Source: a virus. Taken from it: DNA of 64,000 bases. Of this stretch, positions 5,201-63,446 are shown in pieces. The position numbers and the translations under genes are program-made. The notes under the pieces are model-generated. The model was not told where the DNA came from. It saw only the letters and a list, made by a program, of their open reading frames with translations, and ran no database searches. Each line of letters starts with the position of its first letter. The stretch's first letter is position 1. Where the stretch lies: IMG/VR virus record IMGVR_UViG_3300045988_072133, positions 1 to 64,000 of that record. The stretch is one strand, 5' to 3'.

Positions 5201-5201
5201 T

Positions 5202-5510
5202 ATGAAGACAATTTCTTATGAAGAATTCGTTGAGAATTATAGACCTATAAAGAACCAGTTTAACCCAGTTGCTGAGTATGATGGTACTCTATATAATCCT
5301 ATAGAATTTTCACGAATAGCCTCTACTGCTTTACCTAACAGAATACTGTGGACATTAATGCAAGTCAGTTATTTTAACGAAGAAACTTGTGAATGTACTA
5401 CAGAGAAATATATTTACCAAGGATTACAGGAGTTTGGAGATTTCTTAGGATATTTCGTTACTGAAGAACCCTATGAATATGGTAAACCTTTCAATGTTAA
5501 GGTAGAGTAA
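5202..5510 (+). CDS. hypothetical protein (102 aa), last gene of + block
   Basis: ORF only; ATGA start/stop overlap with guaC-like gene. Confidence 0.4.
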   Translation: MKTISYEEFVENYRPIKNQFNPVAEYDGTLYNPIEFSRIASTALPNRILWTLMQVSYFNEETCECTTEKYIYQGLQEFGDFLGYFVTEEPYEYGKPFNVKVE

Positions 5511-5516
5511 TAAAAA

Positions 5517-5553
5517 TCCCCGATAGGTTATACGCCTACCGGGGAATTTTTTT
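5517..5553. terminator. bidirectional rho-independent terminator between the convergent + and - gene blocks
   Basis: Stem CCCCGATAGG / CCTACCGGGG (9 of 10 bp) with 7-nt loop, followed by T7 on + strand and an A-tract (U-tract in - sense) on the other side. Confidence 0.6.
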
Positions 5554-5568
5554 AGACTTCAGGGAAAA

Positions 5569-41505: not shown

Positions 41506-43020
41506 TTACTCAGTAAGAATATTCGGAATCATACTCATGGTACGAGTAGGATCCAGGATTAATACACCCAGAGTAGCCATCTTGTGGATCTGTGCAGAAT
41601 CCTCAGGATACGACATATACGGGTTGTTCATACCACCAGTAAAAGGATTGCGCAGGCCCCACATGTAACCACGATACTCTTCCTTACCACGAACCTTAGC
41701 TAGCTGAATATTAGGCTCCTCAGTAGTACCAATGCACATAATGTCATAACGGTACGACTCTGCAACACCGCCATTCGGGTGCATGATCTTGTTACGTACC
41801 TGATCGTCGTAGAGAGGATTAACATCAATCTTAATAGTTACACCATTAGGAGCTTTGTACTCTACGAACTGGAAACCTGCACTCAGAGCATTCTCATGAA
41901 GCTTGCTCGAAGTCTTTGAAATAATAGCAGGATTAGCTGCATTACCACCAAGATACTGGAATACAGTCCATCCAGATACTACATCAAGAACTGCCTTATG
42001 GAACTGTACAGCACCACGAGAACCAGTCTCAATAACAAAGGTACGATCCGAGTAATCAAGCTTCGACTCTGACAGCTCGAAGAGAGCATCCTCAAGAGTC
42101 TTCAGACTAAACTTAGTGTAATAACGAGTATTACCTACAGACATCTGAGCACGGATACCATCGCCCATCTTAATGACATTACCGGACTTACCAAAGTTCA
42201 GATACTCACCGTTCTTATTACGGTTCGAGCGGCCAAACATTATAATGTTCGACTTATATTCTGAGAAGGTTTCCTCCAGCTTATAGTCTACATGGTGAAT
42301 CCATGAATTTGCTACTTGCTTGTTACCAGCCTTATCTACAAAAGGTATACCAATAGCCAGCTTCTTATCAAGAATATTTCCAGGAACCTTAGTCTGGATA
42401 CGAATGTGTGACCATTCATTACGCATAGCAGTAGAGCTAGTATAACGAACATCACCTACTTCCAGCGACATCGTATCCTCAACAGGAGCATATTCCCAGC
42501 TGAACCGTTTACCAGCAACAAGCTGACTTACGGGCATGCCATCAAGAACGCCTCCCATAAGTTCTACGGTATAAACTGCATTCGAACCTTCAAGTCTCGG
42601 CTGACCCAGAATACGCAGGGGATAAACCTCATTAAGTTCACCTACGATTACCTCGCCATCAGCAAACCAGTCTTCGGGGAAAACAACCTTGAAGGGCTGT
42701 CCGTTGGCACCAGCAAAAGTCTCGGTATCCCCAGTATTCTCAAGAACTTGATCACTCATATCACGAGCCTCTACAAGGGGAATATTACGACGAGAACTGC
42801 CAATGACTTCCCAAGTGTACTCATCATCAGTTTCAAAGTACTTAACAGGGAATCTCTGGAGATAACTATCGAGGCTCTTACCACGATGCTGAGCCAGAAG
42901 CTGTACCATAATATTAGTAGCTTTCTGAGGCGCACGACCAAAAATAGCTCCGATGTGGTTATCTCGGGTTAAGCCTTTCCACGAAGTGAAGGCTTTCATT
43001 TGAAATTTACCTAGTTGCAT
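41506..43020 (-). CDS. putative major capsid protein (504 aa)
   Basis: Size matches crAss-like MCPs (~490-505 aa); elevated GC; preceded by acidic scaffold-like gene and followed by strong hairpin; no sequence motif verifiable by eye. Confidence 0.5.
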   Translation of the reverse strand: MQLGKFQMKAFTSWKGLTRDNHIGAIFGRAPQKATNIMVQLLAQHRGKSLDSYLQRFPVKYFETDDEYTWEVIGSSRRNIPLVEARDMSDQVLENTGDTETFAGANGQPFKVVFPEDWFADGEVIVGELNEVYPLRILGQPRLEGSNAVYTVELMGGVLDGMPVSQLVAGKRFSWEYAPVEDTMSLEVGDVRYTSSTAMRNEWSHIRIQTKVPGNILDKKLAIGIPFVDKAGNKQVANSWIHHVDYKLEETFSEYKSNIIMFGRSNRNKNGEYLNFGKSGNVIKMGDGIRAQMSVGNTRYYTKFSLKTLEDALFELSESKLDYSDRTFVIETGSRGAVQFHKAVLDVVSGWTVFQYLGGNAANPAIISKTSSKLHENALSAGFQFVEYKAPNGVTIKIDVNPLYDDQVRNKIMHPNGGVAESYRYDIMCIGTTEEPNIQLAKVRGKEEYRGYMWGLRNPFTGGMNNPYMSYPEDSAQIHKMATLGVLILDPTRTMSMIPNILTE

Positions 43021-51982: not shown

Positions 51983-54175
51983 TTATATTGTAGGAGTATA
52001 AGCATCTATTGCCGTTGCAAGTGCTGTATTAAAAGCTGATTCAGTAGTATATTTAGTACCACCACCTAATTTATAAGCATTGAAAGCAGATTGTAAATAC
52101 ACGTCTTGACTATTTAACAAATTAGTGGTAGTATTAAATTGTACTCTGGTAGCTGTTATATTATCAGCATTTGCATTTTGTAGATTAAAGAAATAAATCG
52201 AATTAGTAGAAACAAATCCTCTAATACATACCTTATAACTATTATTAGTAGAATCTTCAATAATTAGAATATTAGCTTTACTAATACTCTCTCTAATATT
52301 TGTATCTGTTATAGTAGTATTTAACAATGAACTATCTATGACATATAAATTATTGTATAAAGTAAGGAAGCTTTTATTAAAACCAACAGTACTGTTTTTA
52401 CCTCCCTTACCTATATAATAGGTTGCCGGATCAGCATATGCAACCCTTATGTTACTACACTTTTTTACGTTTACATCAAAAATAATGCGGTTCATAGTAA
52501 TACTTCCATCTATACAGGACTCCATATTAAAGAAGTTAAGACTATTTCCTTTTAAAGCTCCCCTATTAAACACTAAAATGTTATTTTCTGTAACAACATT
52601 AGTAACAATAAGAGTAGTAGCATTTTGAACAGAAGAAGCTTCTGCATCAGTAAGAACAGTATTTAATTTAGACGAATCTATTACATAAGTATTTTCTGTA
52701 AGTTGAGCAACAAGCTCTTTATACATTGAATCTTTATTAGTTCTGGTACCACCTTTTATTCTATAATTAGTAAACATTATATCATCAAAATAAGCATTTT
52801 CAATAGACGACAATATATTAGATTCCAGTCTCAACAAAATATACTTCACTGATCCACTATTATTTATACAATTATAGTATATTATAGCAGTAGATTCATA
52901 ACCTCTTATAAAAATCTTGGTCTTACCATCACCTTCATCCAATATAAGGAAGGTAGCATTCTTAATATTCTCTAACTTATCACCACTATGTACTTTATTT
53001 AAATCAGAAGGAGTGATATAACAAGAATTCATGTTAACTAATCTTGCTACTTCTTGATTAACAGCATCAGCGTTTTTACCAGTGAAACCAAATTGAGAAT
53101 AAGCTCCATAAGGTAGAGTATAGTTCTTGGTATTTATTACCCATTTTTTAGTAGAAGTATTTACAGATAGTTCTTTATAGATTATTTTCTGGTCAGAGCC
53201 ATCTATAGCCCCAACCATAACAAACTGCAAATATGTATTTGTTTTTGATTTAACAACATAAATAAATTTACTATTAGGATAATTAGCATTGTCATTTACT
53301 AAAATTATAGATGCTTTTTTTATCTGTTCAATAGTTTCGTCATCTAAAGTTGTCCCTAAAGTACTATAATCAAGATATACAAAATCAGGAAATTCCTTAA
53401 CTTTTACAAGACTATAATTATCATCTTCTTTAAGAACTTTATAGGTTTGTAAGCACCCTTGATTATATATCCTAAAACTTCTTTCAACAGGATCTACATC
53501 AATTATAGGAGAATCATATTGAACATTATTATAAACCCAAAGTAAGTTAATCAATTGAAATTTATGTCTTTGATTAAGATAAGTATATAATACATTAGCC
53601 TTTGAAGTATTTGTAAATACAGATAAATCAAGAGGATCTGTAATAGTTCCTAAATTTACTGAAAGCGTCTTTGATTCAAGAAACGTTATTTTATCAGACC
53701 AAGTTTTATCTAAATCAACTAAAGTAGTGCCAGTCCAACGATAACTATGGTTTTGAGTAACACCCTCACCAATTTTTACGTATATCTTACCTTCTTCAGG
53801 ATTAATAATCGTCCAATCTTCTTCAGAAGTATTAGCTCCAAAGTCTACAAATTTCTTCGTATAATCAATTGTAGTCCCAAGAATAGCATGTTCAATATAC
53901 CAAATTTTATTAGTAAAACTTGGTTCATTTAATATCATTTCTACACTTGCACTTCCGGTAGTTATGGAATCAAATTCTATAACATCATCTACATAACTCG
54001 GTAATTGTTCGGCAGGAACTTTACTTCCTACAAGGTCAGCTTTAGTTCCCATAGCTTCTGTAAACTCTTCCTTAGTCACTCCATTATTCTCAATGTTCGT
54101 AAGTACTTGAGCTAGTTGAGGATTTTTAATATCATAGCCCTTTTCAAGCTGTAAAATAATTTTTTCGTTAGTCAT
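51983..54175 (-). CDS. repeat-containing fibre/appendage protein (730 aa)
   Basis: At least three ~65-aa internal tandem repeats (Y[VI][IT]xSxLNxxxTDxxxxxxxxxAxxLIxx...RGxxxxxSxxFFN) in the C-terminal half; Asn-rich. Confidence 0.45.
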   Translation of the reverse strand: MTNEKIILQLEKGYDIKNPQLAQVLTNIENNGVTKEEFTEAMGTKADLVGSKVPAEQLPSYVDDVIEFDSITTGSASVEMILNEPSFTNKIWYIEHAILGTTIDYTKKFVDFGANTSEEDWTIINPEEGKIYVKIGEGVTQNHSYRWTGTTLVDLDKTWSDKITFLESKTLSVNLGTITDPLDLSVFTNTSKANVLYTYLNQRHKFQLINLLWVYNNVQYDSPIIDVDPVERSFRIYNQGCLQTYKVLKEDDNYSLVKVKEFPDFVYLDYSTLGTTLDDETIEQIKKASIILVNDNANYPNSKFIYVVKSKTNTYLQFVMVGAIDGSDQKIIYKELSVNTSTKKWVINTKNYTLPYGAYSQFGFTGKNADAVNQEVARLVNMNSCYITPSDLNKVHSGDKLENIKNATFLILDEGDGKTKIFIRGYESTAIIYYNCINNSGSVKYILLRLESNILSSIENAYFDDIMFTNYRIKGGTRTNKDSMYKELVAQLTENTYVIDSSKLNTVLTDAEASSVQNATTLIVTNVVTENNILVFNRGALKGNSLNFFNMESCIDGSITMNRIIFDVNVKKCSNIRVAYADPATYYIGKGGKNSTVGFNKSFLTLYNNLYVIDSSLLNTTITDTNIRESISKANILIIEDSTNNSYKVCIRGFVSTNSIYFFNLQNANADNITATRVQFNTTTNLLNSQDVYLQSAFNAYKLGGGTKYTTESAFNTALATAIDAYTPTI

Positions 54176-54200
54176 AGTTAGGATTAATTATAATAATAAA

Positions 54201-54228
54201 GGGAGGAGCTATTGCCCCCCCCCTAACT
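54201..54228 (-). terminator. G-homopolymer hairpin terminator (G9 ... CUCCUCCC) after portal gene
   Basis: Minus-sense UAA-ACAGUUA-GGGGGGGGG-CAAUAG-CUCCUCCC-UUUAUUAUUAUAAUU; plus strand C9 at 54215-54223. Confidence 0.45.
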
Positions 54229-54230
54229 GT

Positions 54231-56627
54231 TTATTTACTAGTACTAGATGGTTTAGGCTTGGCTTTCTTAATAGCAAGATCTTTTTCTTTAATGTCTATC
54301 TCCTTTGATAACTTAGTCTTATCAAAAGCTAATCTTTCATTAAACTGCCTTATCTGTTCATCTAACTTCGCTCGTTCCATAGAGTTGTCTTGAACTTCTG
54401 GGACTTCATTCTCTGCATTTCCAGATTGTTTAATATGCTCAATAAGAATCTTAGTGTCATTATCGCGCTGATTAAGCATATCTTGGAAATTCATCTCAGC
54501 CTGCTTCATTTCCATCTGAGTCTGCATTTGCTGTTGTGCTATTTCTTGTTCCTGCTGAGCTTGTTCAGCTTGACGTTCTTGAATAGCTTGCTCGTCTTTC
54601 TCAATAGTCCTACGAATCTCTGACAGAGATGATGACGTATAAATCTTCATTATTGAAGAGAATGAGAGAGTTTGATTCTGCAAAGCAGCTTGTGCTAAAG
54701 CATCAAGTTTTGAAGCGAGATTCTGAGTTTCAGGAGAGGCATCTACTACAATTCCATAGTCGCTATCTGCAAAAGTGTCTCCATCAATTTCAAGAGATTT
54801 TATAGCTCCATCAGAGGTGATATACTGGAATTTCTTATTTCTACCTCTCATAGCTATTTTAGCTGTCTCTAAGAAACATTCAAGGGCTCTCCTTTTAACA
54901 TCATCGTGCATTGTAAATAACCATTCTGTAATATGAGAAGATTGTAAATTTGATCTTTCAACACCACCAACAGTTTCACGGTTACTAATCTGACCCTCTC
55001 GCTGTCGAGTAATACCAGCAACCTCTCCCATCTCATTTTTAATAAATTCTAGGAGATTAATGTGTTCCTGAATATAATTACCCTGTTCAGCATCTATAAC
55101 TCCATTAGACTGAATATTTAGAGCTCCTACAACCTTACCTTGAGCAGCTCCTCCATTTCCCTCCTTAAAGCTATCTGTAACAGCAACATGATTTACTTTT
55201 GCATAGTATAACCACTTGTCTATCTCCCAGCCTTTAGGAACCATAGCAAGATCTAGTTTTACAATTTTACCCCAGTTAGCAGCAATAGCTTTATTAAGCC
55301 TATCGTAGATAACGTCGTAAAAATAAGCAAAAGGCTTCATCATATCTACTAAAGAGAAAGGTCTAGAATCATTAAGGTTATACATAGATCCTACAATACC
55401 AAAATGACATCTAGATGGATTAGAAAGTCTATTATACTGTACTATCCTAGGTCTCATATTAACATAAATATCTGGACCTATTTTAGTACCTTCCCATGCT
55501 TCATTAATCCAAAAGATCTCTTCTTCTTCACCAGCTTCTTTATCTATAATGTAGGTTTCTGGATAAAAATCAAAGAGCTCTTCGCCAGTCTCAGGATCAT
55601 AAGATTTTACCTTCTTGATCTTTCTCTTACTCTTCCAATAAAGTCTTAATACTCTAATATTACCTTGGAGATCATAGTAGTTACTCGTTGCTGAAAATCC
55701 AGATTGTCCCATCAGTAGAAAATTCTCTATTACAGTACCTCCTGAAATATCTGTGCCATCGATCTCAGCAGTATTAATAAAGGCATTTCTTTCATCAATG
55801 TTGTACATAGAATCACTACTAAAAGTACTAGCTAGTTTATCTATACTATCAACATCTTTTTTAGATAGAACATCAAAGTAAGTATCTAAGATTCTACCTG
55901 GACTCCAAAAGTCTATAAGTATTATTAGATCTGCATCCTCAACTTTATTAGAAAAACCATTTTTGAAAATATGAACTTTTAAAGGATTAAGTCTTTCAAA
56001 AGTAGGCTCGCCCCCAACAATATCACATTGATAGATTTCCTCACCACAAATCATTGCATCCATAAACCCATCATTAAATATTCTGGGTATATTTAGCTCT
56101 TTCATGTAATGAGAAAGAACAGTACTAGCTCTCATTTCGATAATATCTTGCCATTGATAATCAAAATAGTAAGATAACTTATCTAGTTCTTTATTAAACT
56201 CCTCCTCTGACAAGTTCTCATCTTCTATCATAGCCTGAACTTGTTCTTGGAGCATTGCTAATTTACTATTCTCTATCTCTGAAATAGAATTGGGATTAGT
56301 TACAACAACTTTAAATTCAAATCTTCTCTTCGCTTCTTCTCCTTGGAGAACATGAAGCTTTGAGTTCATAATAGGGAAATGCTGAATAGATTCTGGAACA
56401 TATAGTGCATTGACATTGTCTGGATTAAGAATTAACTCTACATCTCTCATATCTAAAACACCATTTATGAGATTATAGTTAATTCTCTTCTTCAACAGAG
56501 AATTCCGCACCATATTGCCAAAATAGTAAGTTCTTTTGTCGGCCCAATCAAGATGCTGTTTTCTCCACTCCTTAGTTTTTTTACTATAAGACAACATCTG
56601 CGGGGGTAAGTTCTTTAAATCTATCAT
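54231..56627 (-). CDS. putative portal protein (798 aa)
   Basis: Immediately downstream of TerL; size typical of crAss-like portals; C-terminal Q/E-rich coiled coil; no motif verifiable by eye. Confidence 0.5.
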   Translation of the reverse strand: MIDLKNLPPQMLSYSKKTKEWRKQHLDWADKRTYYFGNMVRNSLLKKRINYNLINGVLDMRDVELILNPDNVNALYVPESIQHFPIMNSKLHVLQGEEAKRRFEFKVVVTNPNSISEIENSKLAMLQEQVQAMIEDENLSEEEFNKELDKLSYYFDYQWQDIIEMRASTVLSHYMKELNIPRIFNDGFMDAMICGEEIYQCDIVGGEPTFERLNPLKVHIFKNGFSNKVEDADLIILIDFWSPGRILDTYFDVLSKKDVDSIDKLASTFSSDSMYNIDERNAFINTAEIDGTDISGGTVIENFLLMGQSGFSATSNYYDLQGNIRVLRLYWKSKRKIKKVKSYDPETGEELFDFYPETYIIDKEAGEEEEIFWINEAWEGTKIGPDIYVNMRPRIVQYNRLSNPSRCHFGIVGSMYNLNDSRPFSLVDMMKPFAYFYDVIYDRLNKAIAANWGKIVKLDLAMVPKGWEIDKWLYYAKVNHVAVTDSFKEGNGGAAQGKVVGALNIQSNGVIDAEQGNYIQEHINLLEFIKNEMGEVAGITRQREGQISNRETVGGVERSNLQSSHITEWLFTMHDDVKRRALECFLETAKIAMRGRNKKFQYITSDGAIKSLEIDGDTFADSDYGIVVDASPETQNLASKLDALAQAALQNQTLSFSSIMKIYTSSSLSEIRRTIEKDEQAIQERQAEQAQQEQEIAQQQMQTQMEMKQAEMNFQDMLNQRDNDTKILIEHIKQSGNAENEVPEVQDNSMERAKLDEQIRQFNERLAFDKTKLSKEIDIKEKDLAIKKAKPKPSSTSK

Positions 56628-56654
56628 AGCATTAACTTAATTACATAATTTGTA

Positions 56655-56662
56655 CAAAGATA
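56655..56662 (-). promoter_or_regulatory. TAnnTTTG (-7-like) motif TATCTTTG upstream of portal gene
   Basis: Minus-sense ...aaTTTGaagataattactTATCTTTGtacaaatt...; -33 spacing not canonical. Confidence 0.25.
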
Positions 56663-56727
56663 AGTAATTATCTTCAAATTTCCAAGACGTTCAAAAGTTT
56701 ACTAATAGTTTTCATAAATATCTACTA

Positions 56728-59031
56728 CTAATTATCCTTATGTAGATATTTAGCAAACCTATAATCATAATTCCTAGTAAAGAAATCATCATTACCTAAG
56801 TAATCTGCTTGATCTACATTGATAACTTCAGAAGGAGATAAATTACCACAAAGCATGAGTTTTTGCTCTCGTAGCAACATGAGCATTAATAAGGCATCGT
56901 AACGGTCAAAGTTGCTATCGGGATTCCACATAGATAACTCTTTCATGAGAGCTCTATAATAGCACCTATTAATGTTATTTATAGTGATTTCTGCCTCTTC
57001 TTCATGTCCATCTATAGTAACCTTCGTTACAACTTTAAGAGGCTTTAAAAGCCAGTCTCTGATGCGTGTACGGCCATATGTTTGAACTGGTTGTGTAGCA
57101 TTAACTCCTTTAGCCTTATTACCAAAGAAATTTCCCTTAACAATCTCTTTATCTTTTAAAAACTCAGGAATGTCAGATAGTAAATACAAACAGTTTGTTT
57201 TAGAAAAATATGTGAATAAACCCTTCTTATTATTCTCATAGAGTAATTCAGCATTATAGAATAAACAAATACGTCTACAGGTTTCATAGTAATCCTCTGC
57301 AAACATAGGTCTACCTACATATTCACAAACTAGTTCATCAGTAAATAAATCTAGTACATAGATTGATCCAAGAGACATAGTGTCAGATACATCATCATCA
57401 TAAGGGTCAGCACCTGCTATATAACGTCCCCAAGGTACTTTGCCATCAGGACCTTTAATGGGCATCTTATTAATATGTACAGCTCCTTCAAGCTTGTTAT
57501 CTTTATGAGGATAATCTAAAATAGGCTTTACATCCGCATCTGGAGTAAATTCAACTTTCCCTTCTTTAGTCTGAACAAGTCTTCCAACCCACATATCGTC
57601 TAAACTCTTAGGATTCTGATCTAATTCTAGAATACGATCATTTAATTTATCAGAAGGAAAAATATTACTATCCCTACGCATAATAGCATCTGTGATAGTA
57701 AATGCATACTCAGCTTTACGACGTGTGAGCTGAATAGGATCAGATGAGTTATACTTTAGGATTACACGATGTTTAATCTCTTCTAAAATAGCTCCTACAA
57801 CATCAGATACACCATCTTCATTGTAAAAACCTTTAGAATTAAGGTAACTAGGGAAGAAGAATATTGTTCGCCTAGCTCCTACAGCTCCTTTATCGAAAAC
57901 ATTTGGGAGAGAGTATACTGAATAACCATCCGGATAATTAATCATCTCAAGAGCTCCCATAAAATCTGAACCCTCAGAACCTCCTGTACCAAAGGCTATT
58001 GCTTGTCCAAAAGCCGCAGCTGCATTCTCCTGAACATTAGGTAAAGCTGTCTGCCATACATCTAGAAATTTCGGGAAAGTACCAAACTCTTCATAAAGCA
58101 TTCTATTCGAACGTTTACCACGAATCTTGTCAGGATCATCTTTAACAGCTACCCCTAATACTTCATTTTGAGAACCCCTAGGAATCATTGAATCCTTATC
58201 GATATACCCCGAAATCCACTGCATCTCTGAAAGAGAGTTCTTAAGTCTAGCACGAGGAAATTGAGTGTTTTTAGCACAGAAATCTATACCATCAATAAAT
58301 TTGTTAAGAGTACCGTCCTTAATAAGATACTCCTTCTGATATGCCGTTACAAGACATTTAACCTTATCATAAGAAATAGAATTCTCTCCTAAGAGGAAGA
58401 ATTTACATAGAATGGCAGCTGCATAATATGACTTCGATTTACCACGAGAAGCAATCTCAACAGAATGCTTTCCTCCTACAAAATCATCATATAAACCACC
58501 ATTACGGGCTTGATATTGATAGTGAGCCCTAAGATAAACACCTTCCCAGCATTCAGGAAAGTCTACAACACGATCACCTATGCGAGTACCTTTACGTATC
58601 TTAGTCTGAATAATAGGTAAATAATTTAAGTAGAAATAAAAATCTCCAGGAATCCATTCCCCATCTTCAGGTCTAACCATACCATCTAAGCACCTACGAA
58701 CTTCTCGTGTTAACCACATACCAAACTCTGATTTAGGATTTGCATCAGGACGAAGCTTAGTATAGCAACCATATTTTTGATAGTGTATAGCAGCTGGCCT
58801 AAAGTAGTCCATATTCTCTAATATATGTGGCTTACAAATATCTACGATAATCCTGCCAAAAGAGTCACGAGGTCTATCTTTAGCTCGTTGACGATCTGGT
58901 GAGATAAGATTCTTAATAAATTCTACATTAGTGATAATTTCTAAGAAATCATTCCATACTTCTGTAGATAAAGAATCTCTAAGTTCTTCTGTAATAGGTG
59001 TCTGATATTTATTAGTATCTATAAGTACCAT
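56728..59031 (-). CDS. terminase large subunit TerL (767 aa)
   Basis: Walker A-like EIASRGKSKS; Walker B-like RMLYEEFG; C-terminal RNaseH-like nuclease IAGADPYDDDVSDTMSLGSIYVLD; strong SD AGGAGGAGGUGA 5-7 nt upstream. Confidence 0.7.
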   Translation of the reverse strand: MVLIDTNKYQTPITEELRDSLSTEVWNDFLEIITNVEFIKNLISPDRQRAKDRPRDSFGRIIVDICKPHILENMDYFRPAAIHYQKYGCYTKLRPDANPKSEFGMWLTREVRRCLDGMVRPEDGEWIPGDFYFYLNYLPIIQTKIRKGTRIGDRVVDFPECWEGVYLRAHYQYQARNGGLYDDFVGGKHSVEIASRGKSKSYYAAAILCKFFLLGENSISYDKVKCLVTAYQKEYLIKDGTLNKFIDGIDFCAKNTQFPRARLKNSLSEMQWISGYIDKDSMIPRGSQNEVLGVAVKDDPDKIRGKRSNRMLYEEFGTFPKFLDVWQTALPNVQENAAAAFGQAIAFGTGGSEGSDFMGALEMINYPDGYSVYSLPNVFDKGAVGARRTIFFFPSYLNSKGFYNEDGVSDVVGAILEEIKHRVILKYNSSDPIQLTRRKAEYAFTITDAIMRRDSNIFPSDKLNDRILELDQNPKSLDDMWVGRLVQTKEGKVEFTPDADVKPILDYPHKDNKLEGAVHINKMPIKGPDGKVPWGRYIAGADPYDDDVSDTMSLGSIYVLDLFTDELVCEYVGRPMFAEDYYETCRRICLFYNAELLYENNKKGLFTYFSKTNCLYLLSDIPEFLKDKEIVKGNFFGNKAKGVNATQPVQTYGRTRIRDWLLKPLKVVTKVTIDGHEEEAEITINNINRCYYRALMKELSMWNPDSNFDRYDALLMLMLLREQKLMLCGNLSPSEVINVDQADYLGNDDFFTRNYDYRFAKYLHKDN

Positions 59032-59603
59032 TAATCACCTCCTCCTAAGAATGACTTCATCCCATCTTCAAGGATCGCCTTTTGCTTCATACCTCTCATA
59101 GTACCCATATCTTCAATTTCTTTAGATACAGCTTTTTCAGCATCCGCAAGCTCCTTAACAAGACTAGGGACTTGTTTTACTGCGGTCATAACTTGACCTA
59201 TATTAAACACTAGTTTACCATTAGCGTCTTTCTCTGTTAAATCTATAGATCTAAAAGTATTACGAATATTATCAATAATAACTCTTGTATCTTGTAATAG
59301 TAAAGAAGAAGATGTTGTAGTTAGGTATTTATAAAGTTCTATAGCTTCTAAAACCTGCTTATCTGGTTTCCAATCAGCTTCTAATCCTATACTATCTTTA
59401 ACACGTAAATCTCTGTCTGCCTCTATAATTTCGAAGGAAAAATCTGACCTTGGATCATACATAAAGTATAAGTAAGCTAACTCTTTCATAGCCCTTGTTT
59501 TATCCTTAGTCCTGTCCCTATCTACAAGTTTCTTAAATGGTCTTAGAGCATAAGCCTCTTCAGAAATCTTTAAATTATAGTCCTTATATGTAAATAGCTT
59601 CAT
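59031..59603 (-). CDS. hypothetical protein (190 aa); small terminase candidate by position
   Basis: TAATG-coupled immediately upstream of TerL; no motif. Confidence 0.3.
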   Translation of the reverse strand: MKLFTYKDYNLKISEEAYALRPFKKLVDRDRTKDKTRAMKELAYLYFMYDPRSDFSFEIIEADRDLRVKDSIGLEADWKPDKQVLEAIELYKYLTTTSSSLLLQDTRVIIDNIRNTFRSIDLTEKDANGKLVFNIGQVMTAVKQVPSLVKELADAEKAVSKEIEDMGTMRGMKQKAILEDGMKSFLGGGD

Positions 59604-59605: not shown

Positions 59606-59635
59606 CAAAAAAGCTCCCTACTTGTGATAGGGAGC
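59606..59635 (-). terminator. rho-independent terminator between GroES-like gene and packaging genes
   Basis: Minus-sense GCUCCCUA-UCACAAG-UAGGGAGC followed by UUUUUUG. Confidence 0.55.
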
Positions 59636-59641: not shown

Positions 59642-60121
59642 TTAACATACTAGTTTCTTAGCCTTCGGAGGAGTAACTTCTGTTACTTCCCAATCAAAGT
59701 CATCCACTTTAAAGAAGATATTGGCACTGTCAATAAGTAGTGCAATCTTACCATCTATCTCAAACATGGGGATCTCAAAATCTAGAGTTTCATTATAAAA
59801 CTCATCCGGCATGTCTGCTTTGGTCTCATCTTTAGTGAAACGCTTCCGAGCGTACTTTGAGAAGTCAATCTGTACCAGATCCCCAGGTTTATATTCTCGT
59901 ACTCCAGGTCCTACAGCAATAACTTCCTGTACTTCTTTAAGCATACCTACAGAGTCTTTTTCAATAAGACCTGCTTCACTTACACACTCTTCCTCAGTGT
60001 AAGTATTAGATGTCACTATCATCTTCGTGAATGGAGGTGTCACCTTCTTTATCTTGAACTGCTTTCTTTGCATATTCTTTAAATCGCTTATTAAGGAATT
60101 GAGCTCGGGAATATGTTGCAT
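59642..60121 (-). CDS. GroES/Cpn10-like co-chaperonin candidate (159 aa; probably from internal Met, ~126 aa)
   Basis: KMIVTSNTYTEEECVSEAGLIEKD...QEVIAVGPGVREYKPGDLVQIDFSKY...GKIALLIDSANIFFKV parallels GroES RVIVKR...ETKSAGGIVL...GEVLAVGNG...VKVGDIVIF...EVLIMSESDILAIV. Confidence 0.45.
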   Translation of the reverse strand: MQHIPELNSLISDLKNMQRKQFKIKKVTPPFTKMIVTSNTYTEEECVSEAGLIEKDSVGMLKEVQEVIAVGPGVREYKPGDLVQIDFSKYARKRFTKDETKADMPDEFYNETLDFEIPMFEIDGKIALLIDSANIFFKVDDFDWEVTEVTPPKAKKLVC

Positions 60122-60329
60122 AAAACTTGCCTAAGCTAGGAACATTAATGCTAGTCTGCATCTTTGTAAACTCTTCTTCTGTCATTTCCTCATTTACAGG
60201 AACATTTTCCAATGTATTCTTAACCCAATTCCAATATTCTCTATAAGCTATTTCTACTACGTCATCTGGCATATCTAATTTCTTAGCAGCAGCCAAAATT
60301 ATATCTTGGAGAGTCTTATTATTTATCAT
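60006..60329 (-). CDS. hypothetical acidic protein (107 aa)
   Basis: ORF only; overlaps neighbour. Confidence 0.3.
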   Translation of the reverse strand: MINNKTLQDIILAAAKKLDMPDDVVEIAYREYWNWVKNTLENVPVNEEMTEEEFTKMQTSINVPSLGKFYATYSRAQFLNKRFKEYAKKAVQDKEGDTSIHEDDSDI

Positions 60330-60732
60330 AACTAATCCTAAAATTTAGTAATAGCCTATAAGAGTCCTCTTCATATTCTAAAGAGGGAATGTATCTTTTA
60401 CTAATTGTATTATTAGTAATAACTCCTGCTTTTCGTAGATTTGTTAATACTGACTGAAAGTTTCCCGGAGATATGCCTAAGCTTCCTACAATACCTTTTT
60501 TAATCTCATCAGTGAACAAAACTTTGTCCAGTATATCATCATCTGTAATTGTTCTAGATAATTCAAATCTACGTTGTAATAGTGCTGCTAACACTGCGAC
60601 TTCCCTACCAGGTAATCTATGTAAAGGCTTAAGAAACTCTAGCCAGAGCTTAAAAAAGTTGAGACTAGAGGTCTTTAAATTGGTAGAGATAGACACAATG
60701 TCAGTATTCTTAGTCATATCCCGCTTACTCAT
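60319..60732 (-). CDS. HTH DNA-binding protein (137 aa); regulator or TerS-like
   Basis: Helix-turn-helix-like GISPGNFQSVLTNLRKAGVI. Confidence 0.35.
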   Translation of the reverse strand: MSKRDMTKNTDIVSISTNLKTSSLNFFKLWLEFLKPLHRLPGREVAVLAALLQRRFELSRTITDDDILDKVLFTDEIKKGIVGSLGISPGNFQSVLTNLRKAGVITNNTISKRYIPSLEYEEDSYRLLLNFRISYDK

Positions 60733-61040
60733 TATTCTACATCTTTATCTGCTTCACAAGTTTCACATGAATCCGGTTCAGGAATTGTGAGCATATTCTC
60801 AATATTAATAACCGCTTTACTTACAAAATCTTCACTAAAGAGATCCTTATACTTAAGGACGTTGAATAAACTATCAAGGCGTTTACCCATAACAACTTCC
60901 ATAGCTCGATTGTACTCTACTAATAGCTGCTGATACTCTTTATGCTTATTCTGTAGCTGTACCTGTAGGTTATTAGCGATATCCTTAAGTTGCTCATAGT
61001 TTAACTTCTCCGGCTGTTTTGCTTCCATAGCTTTAGTCAT
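60732..61040 (-). CDS. hypothetical coiled-coil protein (102 aa)
   Basis: ORF only; C-terminal CETCE. Confidence 0.3.
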   Translation of the reverse strand: MTKAMEAKQPEKLNYEQLKDIANNLQVQLQNKHKEYQQLLVEYNRAMEVVMGKRLDSLFNVLKYKDLFSEDFVSKAVINIENMLTIPEPDSCETCEADKDVE

Positions 61041-61042
61041 AA

Positions 61043-61300
61043 TTAAAATTCTTTACCATATTTAGCTCTGTAGAGAGCATTCCATTCATTAATAGACGTT
61101 GTAGATATATCTGTACTACCACAATCATTACAATATTCAGAGATGCCTGATTCATTATAGGCCATAATTGCTAAACTAAGGCACTTTTTACAGTAGAATA
61201 CAGGCTCTCTATTATAGTCCTCTTTACTCCACTTAACCTTCTCAAAATCGGAAGGAGACTCTAAAGGAGGACACTTAGGCTTAATTAATTCTCCTTCCAT
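61043..61300 (-). CDS. zinc-ribbon protein (85 aa)
   Basis: CPP...CKKC...CNDCGS cysteine pairs. Confidence 0.4.
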   Translation of the reverse strand: MEGELIKPKCPPLESPSDFEKVKWSKEDYNREPVFYCKKCLSLAIMAYNESGISEYCNDCGSTDISTTSINEWNALYRAKYGKEF

Positions 61301-61569
61301 TGTTTAAGATATTGATTAAAATCTATTTTTCTAAAAGCGTCAATAATTCTTAATTCAGTAGAACTAATATTTTTCTCTGTCATATCCTCAGATTCATCAC
61401 TTACTATAAAAAGTGTCTGAAATCCTTTATCATATAAGAGCTGAAGTTCTAGACCAATAGATACTTTATTATTTTCAGCTGAGAATGGACCCCATAATAT
61501 TAACTTATAGGGAGGAGTATAAGCTTCATTAAACGCCTCAATATAAGCTGTTAGATGCTTCATTCTCAT
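61285..61569 (-). CDS. hypothetical protein (94 aa)
   Basis: ORF only. Confidence 0.3.
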   Translation of the reverse strand: MRMKHLTAYIEAFNEAYTPPYKLILWGPFSAENNKVSIGLELQLLYDKGFQTLFIVSDESEDMTEKNISSTELRIIDAFRKIDFNQYLKQWKEN

Positions 61570-63052
61570 TAATTATTACACATTTAGTAGATAAGAACAT
61601 ATATGCTACAGAAAGCGCATTCTCTATAGAGACTCTTGTTACTTTAGCAGGGTCTAAAATATTAGACTCTAAAGCATCTTCATAATAGATAGGCATAGTG
61701 TCAAGAATAAGCTTTCTACATGCCATGAGAGCTTTAGCTAAAATATAATATCCTTTCTTCTCTAAAGTCTTAGAGATGTCTTCCTGTATAATGCCTGCTC
61801 CTACAACTACTCCTTCTTCAATAGCAGCTCTAGTAGCACATACTGCATCCTCAATCCTATCTTTCTTCTCAGACATTTCAATTTCTGTAGGTGCTCCTAC
61901 ATAAATAACAGCTACTCCACCAGATAATTTAGCAATTCGAGATTTAATATCATCTATAAGATATTTAGGATAATCGTTTTTTAATGACTCCTTAAGCATC
62001 TCTACTCTTGCTTTAATTGATTCATTAGCTTCAGTTGAACCAATAATAGTAGTATTGTCTGAAGTCACTACGACTCTTTTAACTGTACCTAACTTAATAT
62101 CATCTGTTGATGATGGATATCCCTTTAAAGGTATAATAGGTAGTTTATCATATACTGGAGATCCTGTAATTATTGAAATATCTTCTAAAAGATCTTTCTT
62201 ATATTCACCTACACCAGGCGCTCGAATTGCTGCTATTTTAAGCAATCCTCTTTGGACATTCCTAACTATAGCATTAATTACTTCAGGTGAGTAGTCATTA
62301 GCTATAAGTAGGATTTCTTCATTGTCTTGTACTATATATTCAAGGATTGAGAATAGCTCCTTAATATTATTTAGGATACCATTGTAAATTAGTACTCTAG
62401 GATTATTTAATACTACTGCTCTATTAGCAGGGTCATTAATAAAATAAGGAGAGATATATCCCTTATTAATTTGCATCCCTTCTACGGTTTCGGCATATGT
62501 ATCAAAGCCATTAGACTCTTCTAGAGTAATAACACCATCATATCCTATCTTTGATATAACATCTGCAATTAGCGTACCTATAAATTCATCCCCATTAGCA
62601 GAAATAGTAGCTATATGCTTGATGCTATCCGGAGTATCACCAACTTTGGTGGCTAGGGATTTAATAACCTCCCTAGCGACCTCGTTGGATTTCTCTAACT
62701 CTGCTCTTATAGCTTTAGGATCTGCACCTGCAACAAGTTGCTGATAGATGAGATTGATTAAAGCTTGAGCGATGATAGTTGATGTTGTAGTCCCATCTCC
62801 TGCCATATCTGCTGTCTTAGCAGCAGCTTCTTTGACAAGCTGTACACCTACATCATATAGTGGCTCTGAAGAATTTATAGCTCTGGCTACAGTAACACCG
62901 TCCTTCGTAACCTTCGGATAGTTATCCTCATATATAACTACTGTATTACCTTTAGGTCCGAAGGTAACCTTTACAGCATCTGCTAAAAGGTCAACTCCTT
63001 TCTTAACCTCAGAAAGAGCATCTAAACCAAATACTATATCCTTACTCTTCAT
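61538..63052 (-). CDS. GroEL/Cpn60-like chaperonin (504 aa), lacking the C-terminal GGM tail
   Basis: N-terminus KDIVFGLDALSEVKKGVDLLADAVKVTFGPKGNTVV...VTKDGVTVARAI...AGDGTTTSTIIAQAL matches GroEL KDVKFG...LADAVKVTLGPKGRNVV...ITKDGVSVAREI...AGDGTTTATVLAQAI; AIEEGVVVGAGI near C-terminus. Confidence 0.85.
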   Translation of the reverse strand: MKSKDIVFGLDALSEVKKGVDLLADAVKVTFGPKGNTVVIYEDNYPKVTKDGVTVARAINSSEPLYDVGVQLVKEAAAKTADMAGDGTTTSTIIAQALINLIYQQLVAGADPKAIRAELEKSNEVAREVIKSLATKVGDTPDSIKHIATISANGDEFIGTLIADVISKIGYDGVITLEESNGFDTYAETVEGMQINKGYISPYFINDPANRAVVLNNPRVLIYNGILNNIKELFSILEYIVQDNEEILLIANDYSPEVINAIVRNVQRGLLKIAAIRAPGVGEYKKDLLEDISIITGSPVYDKLPIIPLKGYPSSTDDIKLGTVKRVVVTSDNTTIIGSTEANESIKARVEMLKESLKNDYPKYLIDDIKSRIAKLSGGVAVIYVGAPTEIEMSEKKDRIEDAVCATRAAIEEGVVVGAGIIQEDISKTLEKKGYYILAKALMACRKLILDTMPIYYEDALESNILDPAKVTRVSIENALSVAYMFLSTKCVIINENEASNSLY

Positions 63053-63053: not shown

Positions 63054-63446
63054 TTAAAGAAGTTTACTAATAAGTTTATTCATTTCAGTAATAGCGTCTG
63101 CCAGTTCCTTAACTAAGGCTTTTGAATCAGCAGGACTAAATTCATCTTCTGTTAAATCTTCAGGAACTTTCTCATCCTTTCCCTCATTAATACATTCTCT
63201 ATGAAGAATAAACCAAGACATACTGTGAATATCCTCTTGTGAGGGAACATATTCTACTGCTCCAATGGGAGTCACCAACATTAGCAAAGGTTTCTTAGGA
63301 TACCCATAATCTACATGAGGTAGGACTTCCATAATTACACTGCCATTTGAGGCATATTTGGATTTTGTCATGACTAGATTATCAGGATCCTCCATAATTT
63401 TACTTAAGGCTTCACCAAAGGTGTAATACTTTCTTCTTGCTTCCAT
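63054..63446 (-). CDS. hypothetical protein (130 aa)
   Basis: ORF only; TAA-T-ATG spacing to groEL-like gene. Confidence 0.3.
   Translation of the reverse strand: MEARRKYYTFGEALSKIMEDPDNLVMTKSKYASNGSVIMEVLPHVDYGYPKKPLLMLVTPIGAVEYVPSQEDIHSMSWFILHRECINEGKDEKVPEDLTEDEFSPADSKALVKELADAITEMNKLISKLL

What the first reader, a model, noticed from the sequence alone, without database searches (positions are those of the whole stretch)
59642..63052. Phage appears to encode both a GroEL-like and a GroES-like protein
ORF 61538-63052 is an unmistakable GroEL homolog (AGDGTTT loop, N-terminal equatorial motifs) but short (504 aa) and lacking the GGM tail. Five genes downstream in the same operon, ORF 59642-60121 shows GroES-like blocks: mobile-loop-like EECVSEAGLIEKD, then QEVIAVGPG, YKPGDLVQIDF and a C-terminal beta-strand region. 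A few large phages carry GroEL homologs. T4-like phages have only a GroES analog that uses host GroEL. A phage with its own complete two-component chaperonin, sitting at the head of the morphogenesis operon just upstream of TerL, portal and a 504-aa capsid gene, would be unusual. I do not recall it being described for crAss-like phages. The GroES-like call rests on short motif blocks and is the weaker half.
Basis: partly seen in the sequence, partly recalled or inferred. Interest (0 to 1): 0.75.

Follow-up and report, generated by a model that had tools for sequence, protein, structure and literature searches.

The report
crAss-like phage GroEL plus gp31-like co-chaperonin
This gut crAss-like phage carries a trimmed but apparently active GroEL chaperonin and, five genes on, a divergent GroES/T4-gp31-like lid protein; each gene is already annotated in relatives and phage GroEL+GroES pairs are known, so it is a modest addition, notable mainly because this GroEL has lost the segments that normally join two rings.

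Summary
Both ORFs are real, on the minus strand of a Steigviridae crAss-like phage about 83% identical to cr108_1. ORF 61538-63052 is a GroEL: all ATPase residues are intact, the apical groove is largely conserved, and it is under purifying selection. Two clade-wide equatorial deletions remove the inter-ring contacts E434/D435 and E461/S463/V464, and there is no GGM tail.

The 159-aa ORF probably starts at Met17 (143 aa). It belongs to a family of about 2,800 crAss clusters already annotated 'putative 10kDa chaperonin' (crAss001 gp15). Profiles link it to GroES (hhalign 95%, clean controls) and to T4 gp31 (PHROG 931). The roof hairpin is absent and there is a 22-aa insertion. Pfam Cpn10 is below threshold, and fold searches on the AF2 model were not significant.

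The pair is syntenic in 15 of 15 related IMG/VR contigs and in cultured Cellulophaga phage phi14:2. A conserved terminator follows the co-chaperonin gene.

Phages encoding both GroEL and GroES are already documented (Marine 2017), so 'unusual' is overstated. The crAss literature I could search does not discuss the pair.

Best reading: a dedicated, possibly single-ring, chaperonin with a gp31-like lid for late structural proteins. Physical partnership and ring number are inferred. Novelty: new member of a known kind. Interest about 0.4.

The parts
61538..63052 (-). GroEL-like chaperonin, 504 aa. ATPase core intact, apical helix H/I groove largely conserved, two equatorial deletions, no GGM tail.
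   Evidence: Pfam PF00118 2.6e-48; PHROG 5725 1.4e-126; PDB GroEL up to 1e-116. Residue mapping. AF2 pLDDT 81 with canonical domains. dN/dS 0.07-0.17.
61700..61781 (-). Region of the GroEL gene spanning the two deletion junctions (about residues 424-451). Relative to E. coli it lacks ~427-439 (including E434 and D435) and ~457-482 (helix Q with E461, S463, V464, and the following hairpin).
   Evidence: MAFFT alignments. The HMMER alignment to PDB breaks at the same place. The AF2 secondary structure shows only helices 421-432 and 437-449 and a short connector before the last helix. The deletions are shared by all 16 IMG/VR relatives and by P0244/P0245, and are absent from Bacteroidota GroELs and other phage GroELs.
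59642..60073 (-). GroES/gp31-like co-chaperonin candidate, 143 aa from Met17 (the maximal ORF runs to 60121, 159 aa). Ortholog of crAss001 gp15 'putative 10kDa chaperonin'.
   Evidence: PHROG 931 (gp31 family) 1.3e-4 and PHROG 3188 (GroES) 1.5e-3. hhalign vs GroES 95%, E 3.9e-8, with controls. hhalign vs gp31 69%. Profile vs PDB: top hit GroES 0.017, gp31 0.09-0.12. Start codon from homolog N-termini. dN/dS 0.08-0.15.
59930..60010 (-). Predicted mobile loop of the co-chaperonin candidate (NTYTEEECVSEAGLIEKDSVGMLKEV), with the family-invariant Gly followed by L-I-E.
   Evidence: Aligns to the GroES mobile loop (ETKSAGGIVLTGSAAAK) and to the gp31 loop (EEVTESGLIIGKRVQGEV). The Gly is invariant across 69 family members. 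Lineage-specific loop differences.
59607..59635 (-). Intrinsic-terminator-like hairpin (GCTCCCTATCACAAGTAGGGAGC) plus T6, 7 nt after the co-chaperonin stop codon.
   Evidence: Scan. A hairpin plus T-run is present at the same position in L005-L019, cr108_1, crAss001, cr85_1 and cr116_1, with unrelated stem sequences.
60006..61569 (-). Five intervening small genes: 94-aa ORF (61285-61569), Zn-finger protein (61043-61300), 102-aa ORF (60732-61040), VpsT-like regulator (60319-60732), HU-like protein (60006-60329).
   Evidence: Synteny with annotated cr108_1 and crAss001 gp11-gp14. Same order in 15 of 15 IMG/VR relatives. None resembles GroES.
63054..63446 (-). Conserved 130-aa ORF immediately upstream of GroEL, in the position groES occupies in bacteria. 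It is not GroES-like.
   Evidence: No Pfam or PHROG hit. hhalign vs GroES 0.1%. Present upstream of GroEL in all relatives.
54231..59603 (-). Downstream unit: gp16-like 190-aa ORF (59031-59603), large terminase (56728-59031), portal (54231-56627), followed by a strong terminator at 54199-54224.
   Evidence: PHROG 6681 TerL 7e-89. PHROG 6547 portal 1e-140. Terminator scan.
41506..43020 (-). Major capsid protein, 504 aa; the most plausible client of the chaperonin, by analogy only.
   Evidence: PHROG 11589 'major head protein' 2.1e-108.

Best explanation
The phage encodes its own group I chaperonin system.

Shown: the 504-aa protein is a GroEL derived from Bacteroidota-type GroEL. It keeps the complete ATP-hydrolysis machinery and most of the hydrophobic apical groove that binds substrate and the GroES mobile loop. 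It has lost about 39 residues of the equatorial domain and the C-terminal GGM tail.

Shown: the 143-aa protein is a divergent homolog of GroES/T4 gp31. It has the N-terminal strand, a long mobile loop with an invariant Gly followed by hydrophobic residues, no roof hairpin (as in gp31), a 22-aa insertion, and the two C-terminal strands.

Inferred: the co-chaperonin gene is ancestral in this crAss subfamily. In the many GroEL-less relatives it presumably caps the host GroEL, as gp31 does in T4. In the Pipoluvirus-like clade, and in phi14:2, a phage GroEL is also present. There the lid caps the phage GroEL to form an enlarged folding cage for late structural proteins, most plausibly the 504-aa major capsid protein.

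Inferred: because the deleted segments contain the residues whose mutation creates single-ring SR1, the phage GroEL probably works as a single heptameric ring. Such a ring needs a lid that can release without a signal from a second ring. The two genes sit at or near the two ends of a tightly packed same-strand block that ends in a conserved terminator just before the TerL-portal unit.
For: GroEL identity and competence. T30, K34, K51, D52, D87, T89-91, I150, S151, D398 and D495 are conserved in the window and in orthologs down to 64% identity. dN/dS is 0.07-0.17. The AF2 model has canonical domains, pLDDT 81.

Apical groove: Y199, S201, Y203, F204, L237 and V263 are kept; L234F and L259I are conservative changes.

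Loss of ring contacts: E434/D435 and E461/S463/V464 are deleted throughout the clade. SR1 is R452E/E461A/S463A/V464A (PMC12696368).

Origin: the nearest non-phage relatives are full-length Bacteroidota GroELs at 42-45% identity, and the best PDB hit is the reconstructed FCB-group ancestor.

Co-chaperonin homology: PHROG 931 (gp31 family) and PHROG 3188 (GroES). hhalign 95% over GroES residues 2-95. Thirty column shuffles reach at most 2.1%. Seven neighbouring ORF families reach at most 0.3%. The top-ranked PDB and BFVD structural hits are co-chaperonins, though weak.

Linkage: the same gene order is found in 15 of 15 relatives with enough flank, down to 64% (GroEL) and 52% (cpn10) identity, and in phi14:2.

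The mobile loop of the GroEL-carrying clade differs systematically from that of GroEL-less relatives. Marine 2017 noted a similar loop change for viral GroES genes paired with viral GroEL.

Late expression with assembly genes is reported for the crAss001 'chaperone' (PMC8375218). The conserved terminator is shown.
Against: There is no direct evidence that the two proteins interact.

The co-chaperonin family exists in about 2,800 clusters, nearly all in phages without a GroEL. It clearly does not need a phage GroEL, and its presence beside GroEL could be incidental.

The two genes are separated by five regulatory or DNA-binding genes. They are not adjacent as in the viral GroEL/GroES operons of Marine 2017.

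The three biochemically studied phage GroELs (EL, OBP, AR9) work without any co-chaperonin.

V264, a GroES-contact residue, is Arg in the clade.

The second deletion abuts GroEL 479-481, which lines the adenine pocket, so nucleotide binding may be altered.

Single-ring status is inferred from sequence alone. Phage EL lacks helix Q yet still forms double rings in the apo state.
Confidence: 0.55

Rival explanations
1. The two chaperonin genes act independently. The gp31-like protein caps the host Bacteroidales GroEL, as it must in GroEL-less relatives. The phage GroEL works as an open, lid-less holdase/foldase like phage EL gp146, OBP gp246 or AR9 gp228, or it uses host GroES.
For: The co-chaperonin family is present in about 2,800 clusters and 52 deposited genomes. 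At least 30 of those genomes, and the syntenic regions of crAss001 and cr85_1, lack a GroEL. All characterised phage GroELs are co-chaperonin-independent, and two are single rings. The genes are not adjacent. V264 is Arg.
Against: Unlike EL, whose H/I groove is narrowed and which binds no GroES, this GroEL keeps Y199, Y203, F204, L237 and V263. The co-chaperonin loop has diverged specifically in the GroEL-carrying clade. The pair is retained in every relative examined and in phi14:2.
Confidence: 0.3
2. The 159-aa ORF is not a co-chaperonin. It is a small beta-rich protein that shares only a GroES-like half-domain, as the ADH N-terminal domains do, and has another role such as a scaffold, assembly factor or regulator.
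Against: The hhalign alignment covers the whole GroES domain including both C-terminal strands, not just the ADH-like half. The loop region matches the gp31 and GroES mobile loops, with an invariant Gly. AF2 strands fall at the aligned GroES strand positions. Both co-chaperonin PHROGs are hit by most family members.
Confidence: 0.1
3. The GroEL-like ORF is a decaying, non-catalytic remnant of a captured host gene.
For: It is truncated (504 vs ~545 aa), lacks the GGM tail and has two internal deletions.
Against: All catalytic residues are invariant across orthologs down to 64% identity, and in P0244/P0245 at 47%. dN/dS is 0.07-0.17. The AF2 model is confident and canonical. The deletions are precise and conserved rather than random.
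Confidence: 0.03

Closest known systems
Viral GroEL + GroES gene pairs in marine phages (Marine et al. 2017, PMC5649160), including Cellulophaga phage phi38:1
   Same: The phage encodes both a group I chaperonin and a co-chaperonin. Some of those viral co-chaperonins lack the roof hairpin, and some have altered mobile-loop glycines, which the authors proposed tune them to the viral GroEL.
   Different: There the genes are adjacent or separated by one short ORF, and the GroES is recognisable by a cpn10 domain search. Here five genes intervene, the co-chaperonin is below the Pfam threshold, and the GroEL carries large equatorial deletions.
T4 gp31 / RB49 CocO (PHROG 931)
   Same: A phage lid protein with a GroES-like core, a longer mobile loop and no roof hairpin. 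The loop sequence is similar (gp31 EEVTESGLIIGK vs EECVSEAGLIEKD). The gene lies beside head-morphogenesis genes. The capsid protein is large (504 aa here).
   Different: gp31 works with host GroEL, and T4 has no GroEL of its own. The crAss protein has an extra 22-aa insertion and a C-terminal extension. Homology is at profile level only (69% hhalign; PHROG E 1e-4 to 1e-6).
Co-chaperonin-independent phage chaperonins: EL gp146, OBP gp246, AR9 gp228
   Same: Phage-encoded GroEL homologs without the GGM tail. OBP and AR9 are single rings. In EL, helix Q is replaced by a loop and the rings separate in ATP.
   Different: Those proteins are very distant from GroEL, have a remodelled H/I groove, do not bind GroES, and no co-chaperonin partner has been reported for them. 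This GroEL is 40-45% identical to bacterial GroEL, keeps the groove residues, and is accompanied by a co-chaperonin-like gene.
Engineered single-ring GroEL SR1 and mitochondrial Hsp60/Hsp10
   Same: The SR1 positions E461, S463 and V464 are absent here, together with E434/D435. Single rings can fold proteins productively when the lid's affinity is moderate (established knowledge; references listed in PMC9598537 and PMC5934643).
   Different: SR1 carries point mutations in an otherwise full-length protein. Here whole secondary-structure elements are deleted, and the oligomeric state is untested.
Same-lineage genes already in GenBank: cr108_1 QOR58950 'chaperonin GroEL' + QOR58956 'hypothetical'; phi14:2 g105 'chaperonin groEL' + g096 'hypothetical'; crAss001 gp15 'putative 10kDa chaperonin'
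   Same: Orthologs or syntenic homologs of both window genes: 84% identity to cr108_1 for both; phi14:2 GroEL 37%, and g096 matches the family HMM at 4e-9.
   Different: No record annotates both members of the pair. The cr108_1 co-chaperonin gene call is N-terminally truncated. crAss001 and most relatives have only the co-chaperonin.

Membership tests
Group I chaperonin Cpn60/GroEL | Matches the Cpn60_TCP1 profile above the curated threshold | tested here: met
   PF00118 165.4 bits vs cutoff 34.3; PHROG 5725 1.4e-126; PDB GroELs up to 1e-116.
Group I chaperonin Cpn60/GroEL | ATP/Mg binding and hydrolysis residues (T30, K34, K51, D52, D87-T91, I150, S151, D398, D495) | tested here: met
   All identical in the window and across the clade, except K34R in one ortholog. 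Caveat: positions 479-481 of the adenine pocket abut the second deletion.
Group I chaperonin Cpn60/GroEL | Equatorial-intermediate-apical three-domain fold | tested here: met
   AF2 mean pLDDT 81, pTM 0.68; secondary-structure order as in GroEL apart from the deleted elements.
Group I chaperonin Cpn60/GroEL | Hydrophobic helix H/I groove that binds substrate and the GroES mobile loop (Y199, Y203, F204, L234, L237, L259, V263, V264) | tested here: met
   Six of eight are identical or conservative; V264 is Arg in the whole clade.
Group I chaperonin Cpn60/GroEL | Back-to-back double ring held by E434/D435-K105/A109 and R452-E461/S463/V464 contacts | tested here: not met
   E434, D435, E461, S463 and V464 are deleted; K105 is Gln; R452 aligns to Lys. 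The actual oligomeric state was not testable.
Group I chaperonin Cpn60/GroEL | C-terminal Gly-Gly-Met repeat tail | tested here: not met
   The protein ends ...VIINENEASNSLY.
Cpn10/GroES co-chaperonin | Matches the Pfam Cpn10 (PF00166) profile above the curated threshold | tested here: not met
   No hit for the window protein at E<=1. Four of 14 family members hit, the best at E=0.0019, below threshold.
Cpn10/GroES co-chaperonin | Homology over the whole ~95-residue domain by profile-profile comparison | tested here: met
   hhalign 95% probability, E 3.9e-8, 85 columns, GroES residues 2-95. Shuffles reach at most 2.1% and the reversed alignment 0.2%. Neighbouring ORFs reach at most 0.3%.
Cpn10/GroES co-chaperonin | Mobile loop with a conserved Gly followed by three small hydrophobic residues | tested here: inconclusive
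   The Gly is invariant and followed by L-I-E (L-I-D in GroEL-less relatives). The third position is acidic, as in 23% of the viral co-chaperonins in Marine 2017.
Cpn10/GroES co-chaperonin | Roof beta-hairpin closing the dome | tested here: not met
   A 9-column gap at GroES residues 45-57 in the hhalign alignment, as in gp31.
Cpn10/GroES co-chaperonin | GroES beta-barrel fold | tested here: inconclusive
Cpn10/GroES co-chaperonin | Heptameric lid that binds GroEL in a nucleotide-dependent way | not testable with these tools
   Only single-chain prediction was available; no complex modelling or biochemistry.
T4 gp31-type phage co-chaperonin (PHROG 931) | Profile match to the gp31 family | tested here: met
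   Window protein 1.3e-4; 13 of 14 family members, best 1.2e-6. gp31 itself hits PHROG 931 at 3.7e-50. hhalign vs gp31 69%, 4.5e-5.
T4 gp31-type phage co-chaperonin (PHROG 931) | Lengthened mobile loop and absent roof hairpin, giving a larger cage | tested here: met
   By sequence only: about 26 residues between the strand-2 and strand-3 equivalents, against about 22 in GroES. Roof gap.
T4 gp31-type phage co-chaperonin (PHROG 931) | Required with GroEL for folding the major capsid protein | not testable with these tools
   Analogy only. The MCP is 504 aa, and the crAss001 'chaperone' is expressed late.
Lid-less phage chaperonins (EL/OBP/AR9 type) | No co-chaperonin partner, and a remodelled H/I groove that does not bind GroES | tested here: not met
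   The groove residues are conserved, and a co-chaperonin-like gene lies 1.4 kb downstream. Compare the EL description.

The most novel reading that the evidence does not exclude
A naturally minimised, obligate single-ring GroEL (helix Q, the inter-ring contacts and the GGM tail all deleted) that cycles with a roofless, insertion-bearing gp31-like lid. The system would have arisen in Steigviridae crAss-like phages when a captured Bacteroidota GroEL was matched to a co-chaperonin that previously served only to hijack the host GroEL. It would be a natural counterpart of SR1 plus a tuned lid, dedicated to folding the 504-aa crAss capsid protein. A possible lineage-specific contact is the loop Glu with GroEL Arg264.
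Probability: 0.3. Interest if true: 0.6.

Novelty: new member of a known kind. Interest (0 to 1): 0.4.

Why it matters
Crassvirales are the most abundant phages of the human gut, yet the Crassvirales review and genomic survey I checked do not mention chaperonins.

If the model is right, the subfamily shows both strategies side by side. Most members carry only a gp31-like lid that presumably hijacks host GroEL. One clade, and the cultured marine phage phi14:2, also carry their own trimmed GroEL. That gives a natural system for asking why a phage replaces the host chaperonin, how lid and ring co-adapt, and whether a single ring with large equatorial deletions can still fold proteins. phi14:2 and crAss001 are both culturable, so the question can be tested directly.

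Two practical points. First, the cr108_1 and phi14:2 co-chaperonin genes are unannotated, and the cr108_1 gene start is probably mis-called. Second, gut virome studies use cpn60 as a marker of bacterial contamination (PMC5892011). A crAss-encoded cpn60 would probably escape nucleotide read mapping at about 45% amino-acid identity, but it could mislead protein- or HMM-based contamination checks.

Tried and rejected
1. Single-sequence searches of the 159-aa ORF gave nothing useful: Pfam and PDB phmmer. Family profiles were needed.

3. I tested whether the ORF directly upstream of GroEL (63054-63446, the bacterial groES position), or any of the other six small ORFs tested in the block, is the real co-chaperonin. 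All scored at most 0.3% against GroES, so this was rejected.

4. P0140, a 545-aa GroEL on a 97-kb contig, looked like a possible crAss-like phage with a full-length GroEL. It is a bacterial groES-groEL operon.

5. I tried to get genomic context for the more distant deletion-bearing GroELs P0244 and P0245.

6. I tried to get the temporal class of phi14:2 g105 and g096 from the RNA-seq supplement. The file is not held.

7. Whether the phi14:2 and gut-clade GroELs descend from one acquisition is unresolved. They are 36-37% identical to each other and 42-45% identical to Bacteroidota GroEL, the shared first deletion also occurs in unrelated viral GroELs, and no tree-building software was available.

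8. dN/dS values for several other genes (for example the L017 portal, HU and gp16-like) came out absurd because the tblastn coordinates were partial or out of frame. I ignored them.

9. The sigma-70 promoter scan was at background level (37 found vs 38 expected) and was not used.

Full report
**What the window is.** All genes from about 6 kb to the end of the window lie on the minus strand. The 59-63.5 kb region is 82.7% identical in DNA to uncultured phage cr108_1 (Crassvirales; Steigviridae; Asinivirinae; Pipoluvirus rarus). Gene order, read 5'->3' on the minus strand, is:
- 130-aa ORF (63054-63446)
- GroEL (61538-63052)
- 94-aa ORF
- Zn-finger protein
- 102-aa ORF
- VpsT-like regulator
- HU-like protein
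- the 159-aa ORF (59642-60121)
- 190-aa ORF
- large terminase (56728-59031; PHROG 6681, 7e-89)
- portal (54231-56627; PHROG 6547, 1e-140)
- further on, the 504-aa major head protein (41506-43020; PHROG 11589, 2e-108)

From the Zn-finger gene onward the order is collinear with crAss001 gp11-gp20, where gp15 is annotated 'putative 10kDa chaperonin'. crAss001 and cr85_1 have no GroEL at the corresponding position.

**The GroEL half.**
- Profile and database matches: Pfam Cpn60_TCP1 2.6e-48, PHROG 'chaperonin groEL' 1.4e-126, PDB GroELs 1e-105 to 1e-116. The best PDB match is the resurrected Fibrobacteres-Chlorobi-Bacteroidetes ancestral GroEL.
- I aligned it to E. coli GroEL. Identity is 41%.
- Every residue of the ATP/Mg site that I checked is kept: T30, K34, K51, D52, D87, G88-T91, I150, S151, D398, D495.
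- The apical helix H/I groove is largely kept: Y199, S201, Y203, F204, L237 and V263 are identical; L234F and L259I are conservative; V264 is Arg.
- The same pattern holds in orthologs down to 64% identity.
- dN/dS against four orthologs is 0.07-0.17 (dS is saturated, so the values are rough).

This is a functional gene, not a remnant.

**What is unusual about this GroEL.**
- The HMMER alignment to PDB breaks after residue 431. Multiple alignments show two deletions in the C-terminal part of the equatorial domain, about 39 alignment columns in all. They correspond to E. coli ~427-439 (including E434 and D435) and ~457-482 (helix Q, residues 462-471, with E461, S463 and V464, and the following hairpin). 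The GGM tail is also absent.
- An AF2 model built from 42 sequences (pLDDT 81, pTM 0.68) keeps the canonical three-domain layout. After helix M it shows only helices 421-432 and 437-449 and a short connector before the terminal helix and strand.
- The deletions are present in all 16 IMG/VR relatives and in two more distant metagenomic proteins, P0244 and P0245, at 47% identity. They are absent from the nearest cellular relatives, which are full-length 540-549-aa Bacteroidota GroELs at 42-45% identity, and from other phage GroELs (L021, L022).
- E461, S463 and V464 are three of the four positions mutated in the engineered single-ring GroEL SR1 (R452E/E461A/S463A/V464A; PMC12696368).
- From this I infer, but have not shown, that the protein forms single heptameric rings. 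Caveats: phage EL also lacks helix Q yet forms double rings in the apo state through different contacts (PMC7185714). The second deletion lies next to GroEL 479-481 in the adenine pocket.

**The GroES-like half.**
- Alone, the 159-aa ORF gets no Pfam hit and no PDB sequence hit. It does hit two PHROGs: 931 'head morphogenesis' (1.3e-4) and 3188 'co-chaperonin GroES' (1.5e-3). Scanning T4 gp31 and E. coli GroES shows that PHROG 931 is the gp31 family (3.7e-50) and PHROG 3188 is GroES (4e-31).
- tblastn finds homologs in about 50 deposited crAss-like genomes, most of them already annotated 'putative 10kDa chaperonin'. A profile search finds 2,845 protein clusters, typically 140-141 aa, many of them on 90-105 kb contigs.
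- Of 14 family members, 13 hit PHROG 931 (best 1.2e-6), 10 hit PHROG 3188 (best 1.6e-5), and 4 hit Pfam Cpn10 (best 0.0019, below threshold).
- A family profile searched against PDB sequences puts GroES first (0.017) and T4 gp31 close behind (0.09-0.12). The loops align well: gp31 EEVTESGLIIGK against eevvseGGLiekd.
The aligned elements are the N-terminal strand (VTPPFTKMIV ~ IRPLHDRVIV), the mobile loop, QEVIAVGPG ~ GEVLAVGNG, a 9-column gap where GroES has its roof hairpin, KPGDLV ~ KVGDIV, a 22-residue insertion, and IDGKIALLIDSANIFFKV ~ IDNEEVLIMSESDILAIV.
- Controls: thirty column-shuffled versions of the GroES alignment reach at most 2.1% probability (score 18.3 against 49.1), and the reversed alignment 0.2%. 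Of eight small-ORF families in the block, only this one matches GroES; the others reach at most 0.3%, including the 130-aa ORF that occupies the bacterial groES position.
- Against gp31 alone, hhalign gives 69% (4.5e-5) over the loop and core.
- dN/dS is 0.08-0.15.

**Gene model.** Homolog N-termini (MQRKNFKILKI..., MLKVKKIKPMFT...) align to Met17 of the ORF. The likely gene is therefore 59642-60073 (143 aa), overlapping the HU-like gene by 68 nt. The cr108_1 annotation starts at the equivalent of Met34 and would remove the conserved first strand.

**Is the pair linked?**
- An IMG/VR scan with the GroEL returned 16 loci at 64-99% identity on 14.6-109 kb contigs, most of them 69-109 kb. In all 15 with enough flank, the order 130-aa ORF, GroEL, 94-aa ORF, Zn-finger, 102-aa ORF, VpsT, HU, cpn10-like, 190-aa ORF, TerL, portal is kept. 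This holds even where GroEL has fallen to 64% and the cpn10-like protein to 52% identity.
- The BFVD hit led me to Cellulophaga phage phi14:2, a cultured marine member of the same subfamily (Akihdevirus balticus). It has an annotated 490-aa 'chaperonin groEL' (g105). Eight annotated small genes downstream lies g096 (129 aa, 'hypothetical'), which matches the family HMM at 4e-9. g095, TerL, portal and the MCP follow.
- The phi14:2 GroEL also lacks the first segment, part of the second, and the whole tail. It is only 37% identical to the window protein, so I cannot tell whether there was one acquisition or two.
- In the deposited-phage collection, GroEL hits include none of the 30 Bacteroides crAss-like isolates that carry the cpn10-like gene.
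- The simplest history is that the lid gene is ancestral and widespread in this subfamily, and the GroEL is present in only a few lineages.

**Loop differences.** GroEL-less relatives have ...KY-E.D..T.GGL[IL]D.TKQQG.LKEYQTV. The GroEL-carrying clade has ...TYTEEEC[IV]S[ED].G[LM][ILV]E-KD.VG.LKE[IV]QEV. The first Gly of the GG pair is replaced, there is one extra residue, and a Cys is conserved. Marine et al. saw a comparable loop change in viral GroES genes linked to viral GroEL and suggested it adapts the lid to the viral ring. This is consistent with retuning but does not prove it.

**Transcription context.**
- A 9-bp GC-rich hairpin plus T6 lies 7 nt after the cpn10-like stop codon (59635-59613, minus strand). 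Another lies just after the portal gene.
- A hairpin plus T-run occupies the same spot in every gut relative examined, including GroEL-less crAss001, cr85_1 and cr116_1. The stem sequences are unrelated, which argues for a real terminator.
- The cpn10-like gene therefore closes a transcription unit, and in this phage GroEL lies near the other end of the same tightly packed block.
- In crAss001 the left-hand late genes are said to include 'terminase, chaperone' (PMC8375218). In phi14:2, host-RNAP middle promoters were mapped upstream of g108 and g110, just upstream of GroEL g105 (bioRxiv 10.1101/2020.03.07.982082).

**Comparison with what is known.**
- Phage genomes with both GroEL and GroES are well documented. 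Marine et al. 2017 found co-chaperonin genes on 133 of 337 GroEL-bearing contigs from one site, in both orders, some lacking the roof hairpin, and noted Cellulophaga phage phi38:1.
- T4 gp31 and RB49 CocO are the classic lid-only case.
- EL gp146, OBP gp246 and AR9 gp228 are GroEL-only, lid-independent chaperonins; two are single rings.
- The present system fits none of these exactly. It has a bacterial-type GroEL with a conserved GroES-binding groove but deleted ring contacts, together with a gp31-like lid encoded five genes away.
- Both genes are individually annotated in relatives, so the bare observation is not new to the databases. I found no paper that discusses chaperonins in Crassvirales beyond the single word 'chaperone'.

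**Verdict.** The GroEL is real and very likely active. The 143-aa protein is very likely a GroES/gp31 homolog. That the two work together (about 0.5) and that the ring is single (about 0.4-0.45) are inferences. Novelty: a new member of a known kind, with a variant GroEL architecture worth an experiment. Interest about 0.4.

Noticed in passing
window 59607-59635 (-); also L002 (crAss001) after gp15, L003 (cr85_1), L004 (cr116_1), L005-L019: A hairpin plus T-run directly after the cpn10-like gene is conserved in position across the subfamily, with unrelated stem sequences. It is probably a genuine intrinsic terminator separating this unit from the TerL-portal unit. It is not present in phi14:2, where g096 and g095 abut.
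   Followed up: partly
window 54199-54224 (-): A strong terminator-like hairpin immediately after the portal stop codon, containing a G9 run (AGGGGGGGGGCAATAGCTCCTCCCTT + T-rich tail). Homopolymer runs like this can be sequencing- or phase-variable.
   Followed up: no
L005, L008, L010-L012, L016-L018 (TerL region) vs window 56728-59031: In many relatives the TerL tblastn match begins about 1.6-1.9 kb downstream of the 190-aa ORF or is split. This suggests intron or homing-endonuclease insertions in TerL (crAss001 has an endonuclease gp18 just upstream of TerL, and cr85_1 has one between TerL and portal). The window's TerL is uninterrupted.
   Followed up: no
window 59642-60121 (-) and cr108_1 QOR58956 (L001 6100-6480): The GenBank gene call for the cr108_1 ortholog starts at the equivalent of Met34 (126 aa). 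That removes the family-conserved N-terminal strand; Met17 is the start supported by homologs. The gene then overlaps the HU-like gene by 68 nt.
   Followed up: yes
window 51983-54175 (-): A 730-aa ORF just downstream of portal with no PHROG hit, in the lowest-GC stretch of the window (GC 0.286 for 52-54 kb against about 0.36 elsewhere). It contains several internally similar segments (repeated '...YVIDSS.LNT..TD...' motifs). It may be a variable or recently exchanged structural or receptor-binding protein.
   Followed up: no
window 1-6000 vs 6001-64000: GC skew and AT skew flip sign at about 6 kb (positive before, negative after). This fits a switch in gene orientation between genome modules.
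   Followed up: no
window 62100-62140 (-), GroEL residues ~305-318: The window GroEL and its closest relatives (504 aa) carry a roughly 9-10-residue insertion in an apical-domain loop (LPIIPLKGYPSSTDDIK) that cr108_1 (494 aa) lacks. AF2 gives this loop pLDDT below 50. It is a length-variable surface loop within the clade.
   Followed up: partly
P0242 (1078 aa), P0247 (1081 aa), P0380 (946 aa): Several metagenomic GroEL homologs about twice the normal length match the query in four stretches. They may be tandem-duplicated or fused chaperonins, or gene-call fusions.
   Followed up: no
Bacteroides phages DAC16/19/20/22/23 and SJC03 (MT074137 etc.), ~165-179 kb: These non-crAss Bacteroides phages encode a full-length GroEL (about 41% identical to the window protein) that is annotated only as 'hypothetical protein'.
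   Followed up: no
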